NCBI GenBank assembly: GCA_030265395.1
Contig: JARFYF010000074.1
Span: 99,422,846-99,486,845 of the forward strand
Source: Rhina ancylostomus
Taxonomy: Eukaryota
Direction: 5' to 3'
Length of the DNA stretch: 64,000 bases
Shown here: in pieces, positions 36,001 to 60,000 of the stretch
How positions within the stretch are numbered: position 1 is the first letter of the stretch
How the letters are laid out: every line of letters begins with the position of its first letter
Program-made: the position numbers

Positions 36001-39000
36001 CTGCAGATGCTGGAATCTGGATCAACAAATAATCTGCTGGAGGAACCCAACAGTTCAAGCAGCATCTGTGAGGGGAGAGGAATTATTAACGTTTAGGGTT
36101 GAAACTGTGCATCAGGACAAAGATTTAAGGGTGTTCTCCAAAGCATGTTCTCAGAAAATGCAACCTCCCCACTGACTCCTGCAAAGCCCTGGCCCGTAGC
36201 AACTCAAAGTGGAGAACAAGCATTCAGGCTGGTAATGAGAATCTTGAGTCCGTGCATCTACAGCACACAGAAGCCCAACATAAATGACAGAAGGAGCGCA
36301 CCACATCCAAAACTACTCATGCACCCTTCCCATCAGCAGCATCTGTCCCATCTGAGGTATGTCTGTGGGTACCACATTGACCTCATCAGTCAGACCAGAG
36401 TGGAACCAAGATCTTGTCTAAGAAGTGAACGATAGAACTGATGTCTAATGTACATTCAGTGAAAAGAGTGATGATTTACTTTATCTTGCTACATGCATGT
36501 GAGTAGTAAAACATGTTGGATTGGCTCAATGTTGAAACATGCTTTTAGTTTTTTTTATATTCAAACACCACTGGGATTCAGATTATTTATGGTTGATTCT
36601 CGGCTGGAGTATAAAAAGTGTTTCATATTAATATATCTTCCTTCAGAAATATTGAAGAATCCCTCCATATGAAAGTATTAATAAAGAAATCTACTCTATT
36701 AACATCTCATTCTCCATTCTAATCATTCATTCCCTCCATATTTTGTACATGGCAAGGACAATTTTTGTTTTGGTGGATGGCCATGAAGGGGAGAGGGAGG
36801 ATGGAGGGTGTGAAGAGAGAAAGAGAGAAAAGAGCAGTGGGCAAGGCATCCAACCCAAGCTCACTTTGTGTGCGCGCGTGTGTGTGTGCACCACTGGTGC
36901 AAGGCCTCTCATGCACAGTCCCAATGGTGTCAGATCTGAATGTCACTCCATCATCATCACCTGGGAACTCAGATGTTTGGACATTAACATCATGACTGAC
37001 AGGAAGAGCCTGGTTTAAAGAAGCAATTGGGTACACCTTCTTCTGGATGGGCAAACTAGAGTAGGAACGCTATCTTCATGGAGTGAGTTTTACTAATGTT
37101 GTTTGGGTGTACAAAGAGGGAATCTGATGTCTCAATGACTACCCCTCCATCAAGTGAACAGAATGATTATTAAGTTTTCCCAACACTGAACCAACAGACT
37201 AATGTCTTCAGTATAAGCCCAGCCCTGGAAGCTTCAAATGAGGCTAAGAAGGGCTTACTTTGATCAAGAAAATTTGGATTTGCATCTCAGCAAGAGACAC
37301 TCTGATCCTGCTGGGTGACTTCAGTGCCAGGATGGGAAAAGATGCAACCTCCGGAAAGGTGTGATTACCAAAGAGGAAGCAGATAGGACAAATTCCAACA
37401 TGGTGGTCCTCCTGTAAAAATGTTTGGACCATAGTTTTGTCATAACCAACACCTTCTTTCGTCAGAGATTCAAGTACAGCACCTCATGGACCACTCCTGG
37501 ACTATGCACTGGCACCTGTTGGATTGTGTTGACATCCGAGCAAGAAACCAAAAGAATGTCCACATGAGTTGTGCCATTACAGATACTGATGACTACTGAT
37601 TTGGTTACTGCATTTCCACTGCTATGCCCAAACATTAGTATCAAGGTGGTCCCATGGTGTAATGGTTATCACCCTGGACTTTGAATCCAGCGATTTGAGT
37701 TCAAATCTCGGTGGGACCTCACAAATTTTGGGCAGGCACAGTAGTGTAGCAGTTAGCATATTATTACAGCGCCAGCAACCCTGGTTCAATTCCAGACACT
37801 GTCTATAAGGAGTTTGTATGTTCTCCCTGTGTCTGTGTGGGTTTCCTTTGGGTGCTCCGGTTTCCTCCCACATTTCAAAGACGTACGGGTTAGGAAGCTG
37901 TGGGCGTGTTATGTTGGCGCCGGAAGCATGGTGACACTTGCGGGCTACCCTCAGAAAACACTCTATGCAAAATGTGCATTTTACTGTGTGTTTTGATGTA
38001 CATGTGACCAATAAAGAGATCTTAACAGAAACATAGCTGCTGCAAAGATCAATGTTGAAGCTCTCAAGAACCTTTTCTTTCTTTCTTTTTCAATCTTTTT
38101 TATTGGTTTCAAATCAATACAANNNNNNNNNNNNNNNNNNNNNNNNNNNNNNNNNNNNNNNNNNNNNNNNNNNNNNNNNNNNNNNNNNNNNNNNNNNNNN
38201 NNNNNNNNNNNNNNNNNNNNNNNNNNNNNNNNNNNNNNNNNNNNNNNNNNNNNNNNNNNNNNNNNNNNNNNNNNNNNNNNNNNNNNNNNNNNNNNNNNNN
38301 NNNNNNNNNNNNNNNNNNNNNNNNNNNNNNNNNNNNNNNNNNNNNNNNNNNNNNNNNNNNNNNNNNNNNNNNNNNNNNNNNNNNNNNNNNNNNNNNNNNN
38401 NNNNNNNNNNNNNNNNNNNNNNNNNNNNNNNNNGGCTCAGTCTGCGGCGGCTGCAGGCCCGCCGACCTGTCGCTAGGGGCGGCGTTGAGCAGTCCGGGGC
38501 TGGCTGCTGTTGATACGCGGGGTTTGTGTGTCATTGGCTGTGGTGCTCTCGGTTCGCTGGGCTGTCCTTTCTGTAAATCACATGGAAGCTGCACAGAAGC
38601 GATTTCTCGGGGTCGAGGAAGCGAAGAACGGCAGGAAGAGGAGGGCAACATGGCGTTGGTGATGCTCTGGGTTTCTTTATTAGCGGCGTTGATCTGTGAA
38701 GGTAAGTCTGGGCTTGGACTCGGAGCATTTAATCCTTGTGGTGGGGAGCTGGGTGCCGCTCCCCAACCCCTCCCGTTGAGTTCAAACATTTAACTCGGCA
38801 CGTACTGTTGTACCTGTGATTAAACTTAGAAAATACGTGGCCCCTTGCACCACGTGCCAGTTAAAATGCGGTTTACTTGAGAATAATGATGTTTAAAGTT
38901 ACATTAGATTATTGGTTCCAGCACTGAGCTGTCAAGCCTGTACCCTTTCGATGTGAGGGCAAGCGAGCTGGTCCATAATTGAATCTGCCTCCTCTATCAC

Positions 39001-57000: not shown

Positions 57001-60000
57001 AAGAGCAGGGCAGTAAACCTTATCCACATGGACTTTAGCAAGGCCTTGAGGTGGGCTGGTCTGGAAGGTTGGAAGACATGGAATCCAGTTTGAGTTAGCC
57101 AATTTGATACAAAATTGTCTTAGTGTTTGATAGAGGGTGGTAGCAGAGCGACGTTTTTCAGATTGGAAGCTGGTGATCCATGGTGTGCCACAGGCATCGG
57201 TGTTGGGTCCTCTGTCGTTTATCATCTATATTAATAATTTGAATGAGAATATAGGTGGCATGATTAGCAAATTTGTGGATGACACTAAAATTGGTGGTAT
57301 AGTGGGCAGTGAAGAAGGTTGTCTTGGGTTACATCAGGATATAGGCCAACTGGGAAGGTGGGCAAGGCAATGGCAGATGGAATTTACCCCAAAGTGCTAA
57401 GTGATACATTTTGGGCACTTAACAAGTATTAGTCCAGTAATTTCTCCAATACTTTTGCCTTATTGTTAAATTTAACTTTCAGACATAATTCCTTTTTTCC
57501 TCACAATTTGTTCTCTTGCCCATCTCTAATTGCTGCTTCCCTCTTAATCTTGTTGCTCATTTACCTTTGTATTCTACTTTCACTTTTTTAAAATCAATAA
57601 TCCGTTGATTTATAAAACTCTACCTATTTACTTCTCTAAGTAGGCAATATTATAATACTTTTATAATCTAATACTACCCCAACCTGTTTAGTTAACCATA
57701 GATGAGAGAGTTTTCTGGTGGAGCTTTTCATCTTCCAATGGATTGCATTTTGAGAACTATGAAATGCTTATTCCTTACTTACCACTGTACCTTTTCAATT
57801 ATGTTTTTTTAAAATTATAATTGGCCTTATTTGAGTTTAAGACTGGTTTCAAAATTGAATTTAAGACTAAAACATAAGATTTCAAAATATACGTTGTTGA
57901 TTCTGAAACATTTTGGGATGGTCCGGGGTCAAGAAAGTCACAATCTTGTCTCTGTGTGAAAAATTATATTCTGTCATTGTTTTATTTTTGCAGTGTTTCA
58001 GTGAACCATCTCAGAAAGCTCCATTCCATGTGTTGGCGACAGTGGAAGATTCTGAGGAATGCTGTGATCCGCTCATAGTCATTACTGAAACCAAGAGCTT
58101 GAGCTCCTGTTCGAGTTCCTTTATTTCAAATATTGAGAACGAAAAGCATGATCAAAGCTGTCAAACCAGTGCAGATTCGGGGCGATTTTCAAATACAGAA
58201 AGTTCGAGGAATGAAGATTTCGATGAAAGGACACTCACAGAACTTGATTTACAAACATAGATTTTGTACTTTTAAACTAAAACTTTTCTATTCAAGTCCC
58301 ATCTTTGATTTTTGGGTATTTTTTCAAACTGCCATGTACCACTGGGTGGGTTTGAACATGTGTGTTGCTACTTAGCTTATTTAATTTCAGATGCTTTTAA
58401 TTTTTAATGTTAATTTGTTATAAAACCTTATTTCTCCCACACAGTTCTGCAGACTGAAATTGCCAGTCTAGATTTAAATCACTTTTAGACAGAATCTCCA
58501 ATTCAATAACAGATCTTTTTCACAATTCAAATAGACATGTGGAGAAAAAATGTTTTAAGTAAAATTTATATTTTTTATAAAATTTTCCACAGCCACCACA
58601 GTGCTGCCTGCAATCCTGTCGACCATGCTGGTAGTATAAATAGGATTACAGTGTATGCCATTGCAATGCAATAATAGCAGGTGTTCAGTGTTAAAGTAAT
58701 TAAGATATTTCTAAATGTGCATTTCAATTAATTAATTATTCTGCCTTTGTTATGATCCGGGATGCACTGCCTGTAGGGGTGAAAGAAGTAAAATGGCTCA
58801 TAGCATTCAACACGGAATTGAGTAAATATTTCAGCGGCAAAAGTATTTTGCAGAACCTCTGTGGGGAGGGGAAGTGGGTTATCGGGATTTACTGGATAGC
58901 TCAGCTGCAAAATTGGTAGAGGGGTTGTTGGCTGAGTGGCCTCCTATACTATATTATTTTGTGAATTCCTTGGTCCGTTCCCTTCTGCACAGTGTGATAC
59001 TTGATTGTAGATACTGGCGGGATTGGACAACTTAATGACTGAAGAGTTTCATGTCCCTGAGATAAGGAGGAATAAATATTATAAATATTCCTGTTAATAT
59101 TTTCAATTCTGGGAGATCTTTTGAAAATAGTATGTGCAAGGAAAAAGGCAAGATCAAACTAGGCAGAACTCCATCAACAGCAAATAATTTCCTCTCTTCC
59201 CACCATTCCTCATCCTGGAGTGAAACTGCCATTTGTTTCTAATAGGTAGGAAGACATAAATAATCCTTAATAATGTTCCCAATAATCTCATCCAAGATGC
59301 CTCATTTAAAACAAGTGAATAATAAAAAGGAGGAATAAAATGGGTCTTAAAATTCTCCACGTTTTGGGCTGGCTTTAGACTTGCCCTGGGATAGGTTTCC
59401 ACCCCATCCCTCAAGATTATTAATCCATGAATCTGTGGAACAGCCCATCTGGTGCCCAAATACTTCTCAAAACATGTCGGGACTAATAAAATCTAACTCA
59501 GTACCATTTAAAATACAATTCTTACCAGTATTAATAATGATAGTCCTGTTTTTAGAAACCATGTAAAAGCCCAGTATTTTATTGATGGTAATCTCAAGGC
59601 TGTTCTTACTCCAAAATTTTTCCAAGACCTAGAGATTCTTGGACTTGCCCTTGTGAGAAGCCCATTCCATTTAGAAAAGGAAACAATATTTTAAAGGTTT
59701 GAAGCAATCAACTGACTTAAGTTGACGGATATTATAGTCACTGGTGCATGGATCAAGAGGTTCCTTTCATAGGACTCGCTACAGTGTAATTGGTAGAATT
59801 TTCACAATGCATTTGCAGTTGCAATTTGCTGATTTTCTGATCACATAATTTAAATATGTGAGATTCATCTCTTCATTTAATGAGTTCTCCACATCCAGTT
59901 CTTCTCTCATGAAGAAATTATAATTGTATTCTCTATTCTACTGAAAATAGTCCAGATCCAGTACTATTAGGATCCATACATCACCATGCAAGGACTGTAT

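What the first reader, a model, noticed from the sequence alone, without database searches (positions are those of the whole stretch)
38650..58260. IFNAR1-like receptor with only one ectodomain module, in tetrapod-like synteny
Seen: a complete 7-exon gene with two FnIII domains and an IFNAR1-type tail, directly downstream of IL10RB. Known: tetrapod IFNAR1 has four FnIII domains (a duplicated D200), whereas teleost CRFB5 has two. Inference: if this is an elasmobranch, it keeps the pre-duplication receptor inside an intact IL10RB-IFNAR1 cluster. That would favour the two-domain form as ancestral in jawed vertebrates. Intron 5 (52812-53643) is gap-free and holds no extra exons, but introns 1-4 contain N gaps.
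[Added by the scan's program, not by the reader: the finding's places include an assembly gap (unread letters, written N; its length is only estimated) at 43964 to 44063, 45750 to 45773, 47712 to 47811, 50393 to 50492, 55426 to 55827. Whether the letters on both sides are continuous or in frame is not known: test that first.]
Basis: partly seen in the sequence, partly recalled or inferred. Interest (0 to 1): 0.7.

Follow-up and report, generated by a model that had tools for sequence, protein, structure and literature searches.

The report
Two-domain interferon receptor gene in a ray
This is an intact gene for the shark-and-ray version of the type I interferon receptor chain IFNAR1, which has two outer domains instead of the four seen in land vertebrates, a difference already described in print for fishes.

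Summary
A clean 7-exon gene lies on the + strand at 38650-58260. All splice sites are GT/AG, intron phases are 1,2,1,0,1,0, and it has 358 codons plus a stop. No N gap touches an exon. Exons 2-5 encode one Tissue_fac plus one Interfer-bind FnIII pair.

The sawfish protein P0001 (357 aa, NCBI "interferon alpha/beta receptor 1a-like") matches every exon with nothing missing. All 13 relatives, from 12 shark and ray species, carry one domain pair. So the gaps hide no extra FnIII exons.

Three things place the gene with IFNAR1/CRFB5 rather than IL10RB:
- an ectodomain tree (95/92 support);
- a DSGxxS tail motif, shared with four-domain IFNAR1 and absent from 42 IL10RB-like proteins;
- an end-to-end alignment with a mammalian-type IFNAR1.

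A separate IL10RB-type gene lies upstream at 6724-21012.

The caveats are real. AU tests do not reject grouping with IL10RB (p 0.14) or with either IFNAR1 half (p 0.09). The predicted fold is closest to IL-10R2.

The idea is in print. Secombes and Zou (2017) describe two-domain fish IFNAR1/CRFB5 and report an elephant-shark copy in a cluster with IL-10R2. This is an ordinary new ortholog of low novelty.

The parts
38434..38700 (+). CpG island at the 5' end of the gene. It abuts the assembly gap 38123-38433, so part of the promoter and 5'UTR is unread.
   Evidence: GC is 0.59 and CpG o/e is 0.92, against 0.40 and 0.22 for the whole window.
38650..38701 (+). Exon 1 CDS: start codon and signal peptide, ending in phase 1.
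   Evidence: ATG and GT donor. It matches residues 1-17 of the ortholog P0001. These residues fall in helix 2-18 of the ortholog model.
44493..44616 (+). Exon 2: first half of FnIII domain 1.
   Evidence: Pfam Tissue_fac positions 21-57 of 107, E 2.6e-8. 87% identical to P0001. AG/GT sites, phase 1 to 2.
46711..46886 (+). Exon 3: second half of FnIII domain 1, with its cysteine pair.
   Evidence: Pfam Tissue_fac positions 64-107 of 107, E 9.8e-7. The best solved-structure hits are the four IFNAR1 sequences, at 6.9e-12 to 1.8e-11. The next is IL-20RA at 5.7e-4. 86% identical to P0001.
48849..49012 (+). Exon 4: first half of FnIII domain 2.
   Evidence: Pfam Interfer-bind positions 2-54 of 104, E 7.8e-8. 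91% identical to P0001. Only weak solved-structure hits, all five to IL-10R-beta, best 6e-3.
52676..52811 (+). Exon 5: second half of FnIII domain 2, with its cysteine pair.
   Evidence: Pfam Interfer-bind positions 62-103 of 104, E 6.4e-9. Solved-structure hits: IL-10R-beta 4.6e-7, IFNAR1 1.6e-5. 86% identical to P0001.
53644..53801 (+). Exon 6: transmembrane helix (about 53658-53732) and the membrane-proximal cytoplasmic part. This holds a YxxPhi motif (YALF, 53757-53768) and a PxxL motif (PHTL, 53772-53783).
   Evidence: 94% identical to P0001. Helix 221-257 in the ortholog model. In one search the ortholog's YTLF lines up with YVFF of the mammalian-type IFNAR1 P0021. YVFF is the endocytic motif of human IFNAR1 in PMC7855707 (passage). 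PxxL is called a JAK-binding motif in the preprint passage.
57994..58260 (+). Exon 7: cytoplasmic tail and TAG stop.
   Evidence: 92% identical to P0001. phmmer with this exon alone against the 161 stored proteins gave E <= 1e-3 for 12 of 13 elasmobranch proteins, P0014, and 1 of 17 four-domain proteins.
58174..58191 (+). DSGRFS, a DSGxxS motif of the beta-TrCP phosphodegron type.
   Evidence: Read directly from the sequence. The motif column is invariant in the 12 aligned elasmobranch orthologs. The same motif class is in 13 of 17 four-domain IFNAR1-type proteins and in 0 of 42 IL10RB-like clade B and C proteins. Human IFNAR1's degron is 534-DSGNYS-539 (PMC7855707 passage).
6724..21012 (+). 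Upstream neighbour: a complete IL10RB-type gene. CDS exons are 6724-6781, 13730-13853, 14845-15029, 15120-15283, 17196-17340, 18482-18639 and 20752-21012.
   Evidence: GT/AG sites, phases 1,2,1,0,1,0, 364 codons plus a stop. The closest stored protein is P0128, at 74-90% identity. P0035 is the best full-length relative from outside the batoids. It sits in tree clade C and hits IL-10R-beta best, at 3.5e-31, against IFNAR1 at 2e-27. The tail starts with a KEYL motif, found in 9 of 16 clade C proteins and 0 of 13 orthologs of the target.
43964..44063 (.). Assembly gap in intron 1.
   Evidence: The 68 nt before the gap recur, 91% identical, right after it (43896-43963 against 44064-44131). This fits overlapping contig ends or a tandem repeat.
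45750..45773 (.). Assembly gap (24 N) in intron 2.
   Evidence: The flanks share no repeat. Continuity rests only on the order of the exons on both sides.
47712..47811 (.). Assembly gap in intron 3.
   Evidence: The 51 nt before the gap recur, 96% identical, at 47903-47953.
50393..50492 (.). Assembly gap in intron 4, inside a repeat.
   Evidence: The left flank matches window 3310-3140 and the right flank matches 3130-3091. In that other copy of the repeat the two pieces lie 9 nt apart.
55426..55827 (.). Assembly gap in intron 6, inside one minus-strand LINE copy.
   Evidence: Both flanks match a second LINE copy (56451-57450) in the same order. The spacing is 407 nt across the gap against 390 nt in the other copy.

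Best explanation
This is the elasmobranch ortholog of IFNAR1 (fish name CRFB5). IFNAR1 is the low-affinity, TYK2-associated chain of the type I interferon receptor. It appears here in the two-FnIII (one D200) form.

**Shown:**
- an intact 7-exon gene with the class II cytokine receptor exon plan;
- one Tissue_fac plus one Interfer-bind domain, one membrane helix, and a tail of about 110 residues;
- conservation of this architecture across 12 other shark and ray species;
- a position directly downstream of an IL10RB-type gene on the same strand.

**Inferred from the families involved:**
- The ectodomain meets interferon already held by an IFNAR2-type chain, probably in the manner of a two-domain accessory chain such as IL-10R2.
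- The membrane-proximal box (YxxPhi and PxxL) and the following acidic stretch hold TYK2.
- After signalling, the two serines of DSGRFS are phosphorylated. SCF-beta-TrCP then binds, and the receptor is ubiquitinated, internalised and degraded, as in mammalian IFNAR1.

The four-domain form of land vertebrates would be a later internal duplication of exons 2-5. This lineage never had that duplication.
For: **Gene model and domains:**

**Collinearity.** tblastn of the ortholog P0001 covers its residues 1-357 across the seven exons with no stretch missing.

**Architecture in relatives.** All 13 named relatives, from 12 species, are 294-400 aa. Each lists PF01108 and PF09294, with no sign of a second pair. 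They lie on contigs of 54-217 Mb. Sources of them IFNAR1a-like and 5 IL10RB-like.

**No hidden exons in read sequence.** tblastn of all 161 stored family proteins, four-domain ones included, found 14 places in the window at E <= 1e-3. Seven are the target's exons, six cover the neighbour's seven exons, and one is a LINE-derived match at 754-1041. None lies in the read intron sequence.

**Profile search.** After the elasmobranch cluster and P0014, the best hits were proteins of 548-575 aa with two D200 units. They matched from the second unit through to the tail.

**Naming the four-domain group.** P0021, from that group, matches solved IFNAR1 at 2.2e-194. It aligns with P0001 from the ectodomain through the membrane helix to the DSG motif.

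**Tree.** IQ-TREE on 70 D200 units gave three supported splits:
- cartilaginous-fish units, both IFNAR1 halves and bony-fish two-domain forms, against the IL10RB-like and other clades: 95/92;
- elasmobranchs plus P0014: 98/95;
- all bony-vertebrate units together: 100/97.

**DSGxxS motif:**

| Group | With motif |
|---|---|
| Elasmobranch | 12 of 13 |
| P0014 | 1 of 1 |
| Four-domain | 13 of 17 |
| Bony-fish two-domain | 23 of 38 |
| Clade C | 0 of 16 |
| Clade B | 0 of 26 |

**Tail-only profile at E <= 1e-3:** 2 of 17 four-domain, 6 of 38 bony-fish two-domain, 0 of 42 clade B and C.

**Solved structures.** P0001 hits IFNAR1 at 1.4e-39, IL-10R-beta at 1.1e-25 and IFNGR2 at 1.8e-12.
Against: - The ectodomain alone does not settle orthology. 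The AU test does not reject a clade of the cartilaginous-fish proteins with IL10RB-like clade C (p 0.142).
- Exons 4 and 5 are slightly closer to IL-10R-beta than to IFNAR1 among solved structures.
- The IFNAR1 score sums two matched stretches.
- The predicted fold of the ortholog is nearest IL-10R2 (E 5e-18, TM 0.53). IFNAR1 comes only at rank 32 (E 1.2e-12).
- Sources name 5 of 13 orthologs IL10RB-like.
- Tail similarity to bony-vertebrate IFNAR1 is weak outside the short motif.
- No transcript, ligand, TYK2 or beta-TrCP data exist for this gene. Every functional step is inferred.
- The groups used in the motif counts were assigned by hand from the FastTree. They cover 113 of 161 proteins.
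Confidence: 0.85

Rival explanations
1. The gene is a lineage-specific tandem copy of IL10RB, a second common chain for IL-10-family or lambda-type cytokines. It would resemble IFNAR1 only by shared ancestry of the two accessory chains.
For: - The fold search puts IL-10R2 first.
- Exons 4 and 5 score a little better with IL-10R-beta.
- Sources name 5 of 13 orthologs IL10RB-like.
- The AU test does not reject a clade with clade C (p 0.142).
- The gene sits next to an IL10RB-type gene with the same exon sizes for exons 2, 4 and 6: 124, 164 and 158 nt.
Against: - The best tree separates it from clade C at 95/92.
- 0 of 42 clade B and C proteins have DSGxxS, against 12 of 13 orthologs of this gene.
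- The tail aligns with IFNAR1 through to the motif.
- 0 of 13 orthologs have the KE[FY]L motif, which 9 of 16 clade C proteins and the upstream neighbour carry.
- Exon 3 prefers IFNAR1 by eight orders of magnitude over the next family.
Confidence: 0.08
2. The gene really has four FnIII domains, and the other four exons lie in the unread N stretches or in a mis-joined scaffold.
For: Introns 1-4 and 6 hold N gaps whose true length is unknown. The 24-N gap at 45750 has no continuity evidence of its own.
Against: - A duplicated block of exons 2-5 would have to sit whole in intron 1 or intron 5. Intron 5 is fully read and only 832 nt long.
- The ortholog P0001 is covered residue for residue with nothing missing.
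- 13 of 13 relatives on contigs of 54-217 Mb have one domain pair.
- Four of the five gaps have the same repeat or the same LINE copy on both sides.
- No extra class II receptor exon was found in read intron sequence with 161 queries.
Confidence: 0.02
3. The gene is intact in sequence but works as a decoy or is not expressed, so it is not a signalling chain.
For: No expression data were available. A decoy class II receptor is described in zebrafish (PMC13599139, abstract in the listing).
Against: - The reading frame is open and all splice sites are canonical.
- There is a CpG island at the 5' end.
- The transmembrane segment and the cytoplasmic motifs are invariant or nearly so across 12 aligned orthologs from sharks and rays. 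This argues for selection on the signalling tail.
Confidence: 0.04

Closest known systems
Elasmobranch 'interferon alpha/beta receptor 1a-like' proteins in NCBI annotation, such as Pristis pectinata isoform X2 (P0001) and Amblyraja radiata (P0003)
   Same: Same exon-by-exon layout, one Tissue_fac plus one Interfer-bind domain, the same membrane-proximal box and the same DSGxFS tail motif. Length is 357-358 aa in batoids. Identity to P0001 is 86-94% for exons 2-7.
   Different: A different species. No identical protein turned up in the two protein searches seeded from this gene's exon 3 and from P0001. It is one residue longer than P0001 at the exon 2/3 junction and the same length as P0003.
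Teleost CRFB5 (fish IFNAR1), the shared chain of the zebrafish type I interferon receptors
   Same: Two FnIII domains rather than four (PMC5332411 passages). It pairs with IFNAR2-type chains (PMC8863823 passage). An unnamed bony-fish-like two-domain clade groups with IFNAR1 in my tree, and 23 of its 38 members carry DSGxxS.
   Different: The cartilaginous-fish proteins branch outside all bony-vertebrate units (100/97). The tails are otherwise poorly alignable. I could not confirm that the unnamed clade is CRFB5, because names were unavailable.
Tetrapod IFNAR1 (four FnIII subdomains, SD1-SD4)
   Same: The membrane-proximal YxxPhi motif, the DSGxxS degron and the overall order of tail elements. 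Exon 3 matches both SD1 and SD3 of human and mouse IFNAR1. It neighbours IL10RB. The gene order in human is recalled. The clustering is stated in PMC5332411.
   Different: Only one D200 module. Identity is 27% over 346 aligned columns against the C-terminal half plus tail of P0021, and 32% against its N-terminal half.
IL-10R2 (IL10RB), the common chain for IL-10-family and lambda/upsilon interferons
   Same: Two-domain ectodomain, nearest solved fold, the same 7-exon plan and phases, and a short tail.
   Different: No DSGxxS in 0 of 42 clade B and C proteins. A different juxtamembrane motif. A separate tree clade. The IL10RB slot at this locus is already filled by the upstream gene.

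Membership tests
Class II cytokine receptor family (CRF2/CRFB) | Ectodomain module of one Tissue_fac-type and one Interfer-bind-type FnIII domain (D200) | tested here: met
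   Four exon-wise Pfam hits above the curated cut-offs together cover both profiles. Two beta-sandwich domains appear in the model of the ortholog. The top 50 fold matches are all class II receptors or tissue factor.
Class II cytokine receptor family (CRF2/CRFB) | Seven-exon gene with intron phases 1-2-1-0-1 across the ectodomain exons | tested here: met
   Phases are 1,2,1,0,1,0. The 1-2-1-0-1 pattern is stated for ancestral class II receptors in the preprint passage.
Class II cytokine receptor family (CRF2/CRFB) | Signal peptide, single transmembrane helix and a cytoplasmic tail | tested here: met
   Helices 2-18 and 221-257 in the ortholog model. Hydrophobic stretch in exon 6.
IFNAR1/CRFB5 orthogroup | Groups with IFNAR1 rather than IL10RB or IFNGR2 in a family tree | tested here: met
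   95/92 split in the IQ-TREE of 70 D200 units. The four-domain group is anchored by P0021, which matches solved IFNAR1 at 2.2e-194. Clade C is anchored by P0035, which hits IL-10R-beta best. IFNGR2 is far off at 1.8e-12.
IFNAR1/CRFB5 orthogroup | The alternative grouping with IL10RB is statistically rejected | tested here: inconclusive
   AU p 0.142, log-likelihood difference 8.0.
IFNAR1/CRFB5 orthogroup | DSGxxS phosphodegron near the C-terminus | tested here: met
   DSGRFS at 58174-58191. The human motif DSGNYS and its role are in PMC7855707 (passage).
IFNAR1/CRFB5 orthogroup | Lies in the IL10RB-IFNAR1 gene cluster | tested here: met
   An IL10RB-type gene ends 17.6 kb upstream on the same strand. 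Only this pair is visible in the window.
IFNAR1/CRFB5 orthogroup | Binds type I interferon together with an IFNAR2-type chain and carries TYK2 | not testable with these tools
   No binding or signalling data. No complex prediction was run.
Tetrapod-type IFNAR1 | Four FnIII subdomains (two D200 modules) | tested here: not met
   One module only. I therefore file it in the wider IFNAR1/CRFB5 orthogroup, not as a tetrapod-type IFNAR1.
IL10RB | Groups with IL10RB and carries its juxtamembrane KE[FY]L-type motif | tested here: not met
   It is separated from clade C in the best tree. The motif is in 0 of 13 orthologs, against 9 of 16 clade C proteins. The neighbour gene has the motif. The AU test leaves the grouping formally open.

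The most novel reading that the evidence does not exclude
The duplication that made four-domain IFNAR1 may be older than the tetrapod ancestor. It could date to the stem of bony vertebrates. Ray-finned-fish CRFB5 would then be a secondarily shortened C-terminal half. Cartilaginous fishes would be the only living group with the truly primary two-domain receptor.

In the best tree the bony-fish two-domain clade nests with the C-terminal units of two four-domain proteins, P0015 and P0020, but at weak support (86/84 and 88/25). The taxa of these unnamed proteins could not be looked up.
Probability: 0.12. Interest if true: 0.45.

Novelty: new member of a known kind. Interest (0 to 1): 0.15.

Why it matters
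The gene adds one more batoid to a consistent picture. Cartilaginous fishes carry a two-domain IFNAR1 next to IL10RB, which supports the published view that the four-domain receptor arose later by internal duplication. Its practical value is a clean, hand-checked gene model for both receptor genes in a gap-rich assembly. It also shows that the N gaps here do not hide coding sequence. It opens no new question. How a two-domain IFNAR1 engages interferon is already posed in the literature (PMC5332411 passage) and needs bench work, not more sequence.

Tried and rejected
- **Profile search through the word index.** It returned only the same 13 elasmobranch proteins and reached no further.
- **Names and taxa for P0014-P0161.** The clades are therefore labelled only through three comparisons with solved structures.
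- **Protein atlas look-up of P0015.** It gave IFNAR1 and IL10RB-like clusters at the same score (0.98) and no taxon below Chordata, so it does not discriminate.
- **Fold search.** It ranks IL-10R2 first. I read this as shared two-domain architecture, not orthology.
- **Exon-wise searches with exons 2 and 4.** They are too weak to assign a family.
- **Exon 7 alone against the stored proteins.** It reached only 1 of 17 four-domain proteins. The tail profile did little better.
- **The E[YCF]FSE motif.** It is in 9 of 13 elasmobranch proteins but only 1 of 17 four-domain proteins, so I dropped it as a marker. The third pattern in that script was mis-written and matched nothing.
- **Pfam on eight intronic ORFs.** Only an RVT_1 hit below the cut-off and LINE-derived families came up. 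I showed LINE identity by comparing copies instead.
- **Literature.** PMC6640115 does not mention IFNAR1. The paper search was too loose to be useful.
- **AU tests.** They reject none of the three alternatives. The two alternatives for the order of duplication have the same likelihood. That fits a zero-length internal branch, meaning no signal for either.
- **Not run.** I ran no complex prediction. I did not use genome contigs, which holds only bacteria and archaea.
- I never joined the exons into one protein for a search, fold or tree. Full-length work used the natural ortholog P0001.

Full report
**What is there**

The window is AT-rich (GC 0.40) and CpG-poor (o/e 0.22). It holds twelve runs of N. 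On the + strand between 38650 and 58260 I read a seven-exon gene by hand and checked it by script.

- The CDS exons are 38650-38701, 44493-44616, 46711-46886, 48849-49012, 52676-52811, 53644-53801 and 57994-58260.
- Every intron begins with GT and ends with AG.
- No exon holds a stop or an N.
- Phases are 1,2,1,0,1,0.
- The total is 1077 nt, which is 358 codons plus TAG.

A CpG island (38434-38700, GC 0.59, o/e 0.92) covers the start of the gene and runs into the gap at 38123-38433.

I never joined the exons into one protein. All searches with window sequence were exon by exon. Full-length work used a natural ortholog.

**Domains**

Four of six exon translations hit Pfam above the curated cut-offs. 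Exons 2 and 3 cover the Tissue_fac profile. Exons 4 and 5 cover the Interfer-bind profile. The membrane and tail exons hit nothing. That is one D200 module, the unit of class II cytokine receptors. The phase pattern is the one a recent preprint calls typical of ancestral class II receptors (passage).

**The gaps, tested first**

All five gaps inside the finding lie in introns, so none can break a reading frame.

| Gap | Intron | Evidence on continuity |
|---|---|---|
| 43964-44063 | 1 | The 68 nt before it recur at 91% right after it |
| 45750-45773 | 2 | None of its own |
| 47712-47811 | 3 | The 51 nt before it recur at 96% at 47903-47953 |
| 50393-50492 | 4 | Its two flanks lie 9 nt apart in another copy of the same repeat at 3091-3310 |
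| 55426-55827 | 6 | Both flanks are ordered parts of one minus-strand LINE; spacing is 407 nt against 390 nt in a second copy |

The stronger argument is collinearity. The sawfish protein P0001 (357 aa) came from a search with exon 3 alone (86% identity, the only hit). tblastn maps its residues 1-357 onto the seven exons with no stretch missing.

A search with P0001 found 13 proteins from 12 shark and ray species. They are 294-400 aa long, each lists one PF01108 and one PF09294, and they lie on contigs of 54-217 Mb.

tblastn of all 161 stored family proteins, including four-domain ones, found only the seven exons of this gene, the exons of the upstream gene and one LINE-derived match (14 places at E <= 1e-3). 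A duplicated block of exons 2-5 would have to sit in intron 1 or intron 5. Intron 5 is fully read. I conclude that the gaps hide no FnIII exons.

**Which receptor**

Exon-wise comparison with solved structures is mixed.
- Exon 3 clearly prefers IFNAR1 (6.9e-12 to 1.8e-11; next family 5.7e-4) and matches both SD1 and SD3.
- Exon 2 leans weakly to IFNAR1.
- Exons 4 and 5 lean slightly to IL-10R-beta.
- The whole ortholog P0001 scores 1.4e-39 with IFNAR1, summed over two stretches. It scores 1.1e-25 with IL-10R-beta and 1.8e-12 with IFNGR2.

An exhaustive profile search with an alignment of 12 of the 13 orthologs gave 918 hits at E <= 1e-3. The truncated P0013 was left out of the alignment (A1). 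After the elasmobranch cluster and P0014 (357 aa) came proteins of 548-575 aa with two D200 units. They matched from their second unit through to the tail. One of them, P0021, is IFNAR1 by comparison with solved structures (2.2e-194). It aligns with P0001 from the ectodomain through the membrane helix to the tail motif.

**Trees**

I cut the stored proteins into D200 units with a local HMM. Four long multi-unit proteins and all incomplete units were left out. A FastTree of the remaining 156 units guided the choice of 70 units for a careful IQ-TREE run. The other 86 were left out by hand to keep each clade represented.

The results of the IQ-TREE run were:
- Cartilaginous-fish units, both halves of the four-domain proteins and a bony-fish-like two-domain clade stand together against IL10RB-like clade C, clade B and others (95/92).
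- Elasmobranchs plus P0014 form a clade (98/95).
- All bony-vertebrate units form a clade that excludes them (100/97).

That is the pattern expected of a pre-duplication receptor. But the AU tests do not reject a clade with clade C (p 0.142). Nor do they reject a clade with the N-terminal halves (p 0.0945), or one with the C-terminal halves plus the fish forms (p 0.0943). Under LG+F+G4 the last two alternatives have the same likelihood, 12.7 units below the free tree. That fits a zero-length internal branch.

**Tail**

The tail holds DSGRFS at 58174-58191. A DSGxxS motif is present in the following shares of each group:

| Group | Proteins with DSGxxS |
|---|---|
| Elasmobranch (the exception is a truncated isoform) | 12 of 13 |
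| P0014 | 1 of 1 |
| Four-domain | 13 of 17 |
| Bony-fish two-domain | 23 of 38 |
| Clade C | 0 of 16 |
| Clade B | 0 of 26 |

The groups were assigned by hand and cover 113 of 161 proteins. The motif column is invariant in alignment A1. In human IFNAR1, DSGNYS is the phosphodegron bound by SCF-beta-TrCP, and YVFF is the endocytic motif (PMC7855707, passages). In one search the ortholog's YTLF lines up with YVFF of P0021, and the window has YALF at the same place.

A tail-only profile reaches few bony-vertebrate proteins: 2 of 17 four-domain and 6 of 38 fish forms. It reaches none of the 42 clade B and C proteins.

**Neighbour**

A second complete gene lies at 6724-21012 on the same strand. 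It has seven exons, the same phases, and 364 codons plus a stop.
- Its closest stored protein is P0128, at 74-90% identity.
- P0035 is the best full-length relative from outside the batoids. It sits in clade C and hits IL-10R-beta best, at 3.5e-31, against 2e-27 for IFNAR1.
- Its tail begins with a KEYL motif, found in 9 of 16 clade C proteins and 0 of 13 orthologs of the target.

So the IL10RB slot is filled by the neighbour, and the target is the next gene, 17.6 kb downstream. Nothing of the family lies in 58261-64000 or 1-6723. Only this pair of the cluster can be seen.

**Fold**

An AlphaFold model of P0001 with alignment A1 has mean pLDDT 61.8, and most ectodomain blocks of ten residues score 66-91. 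It shows a signal helix, two beta-sandwich domains, a membrane helix at 221-257 and a disordered tail. Its nearest solved folds are IL-10R2 chains (E 5e-18, TM 0.53). IFNAR1 comes at rank 32. The ectodomain is therefore built like a two-domain accessory chain. This fits the mechanism I propose but does not help with orthology.

**What is known**

- Passages of Secombes and Zou 2017 (PMC5332411) report a single IFNAR1/CRFB5 in elephant shark, in a cluster with IL-10R2, IFN-gammaR2 and two IFNAR2 copies. They state that fish IFNAR1/CRFB5 has two FnIII domains. They put the four-domain form down to a domain duplication in the tetrapod ancestor.
- PMC8980424 (passage) says the same of SD1-2 and SD3-4.
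- A 2026 preprint refers to the shark Il10r-Ifnar1 cluster (passage).
- Searches for IFNAR1 with shark terms turned up no paper on a ray or skate IFNAR1 as such.
- Supplements were closed.

**Verdict**

The thing is an ordinary ortholog of a gene that NCBI already annotates in other elasmobranchs, and the evolutionary reading is the published one.

The closed collections (viral and metagenome contigs) have no bearing here.

Noticed in passing
window 37648-37720 (+), 48424-48587, 52570-52637: A tRNA-Gln(TTG)-like sequence scores 61.5 bits in Rfam. The DNA after it recurs at 81% in intron 3 and, inverted, at 88% ending 38 nt upstream of exon 5. It looks like a tRNA-derived SINE family rather than a working tRNA gene.
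   Followed up: partly
window 49790-51700, 54600-57450, also 138-1130 and 63321-64000: Introns 4 and 6 and both ends of the window are full of LINE fragments on both strands, with reverse-transcriptase-like ORFs. Two copies in intron 6 face each other.
   Followed up: partly
window 15030-15119: Intron 3 of the upstream IL10RB-type gene is only 90 nt long. The matching intron of the IFNAR1-type gene is 1962 nt.
   Followed up: no
proteins P0023 (373 aa) and P0024 (469 aa): Two unnamed proteins carry a DSGH[FY]S tail motif like IFNAR1, yet their ectodomain falls outside the IFNAR1 side of the tree (99/95 as a pair). Their origin could not be looked up.
   Followed up: no
alignment A1, columns 90-115: Six of the eight shark proteins in A1 carry an insert of 15 to 25 residues between the parts encoded by exons 2 and 3. 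The other two sharks, the four batoids and this window lack it. The open frame upstream of exon 3 (from 46619) was not tested as a relic of it.
   Followed up: no
protein P0015 (548 aa): This is the four-domain protein most like the elasmobranch profile (E 4.4e-96). Its two halves pair with each other in the FastTree (support 84) but not in the careful tree. Independent duplication or gene conversion is possible. Its taxon is unknown.
   Followed up: partly
window 38123-38433: An assembly gap of 311 N abuts the CpG island at the 5' end of the gene, so the promoter and possibly a non-coding first exon are unread.
   Followed up: no
window 49413-49469: A 24-nt unit is repeated 2.4 times in intron 4.
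   Followed up: no
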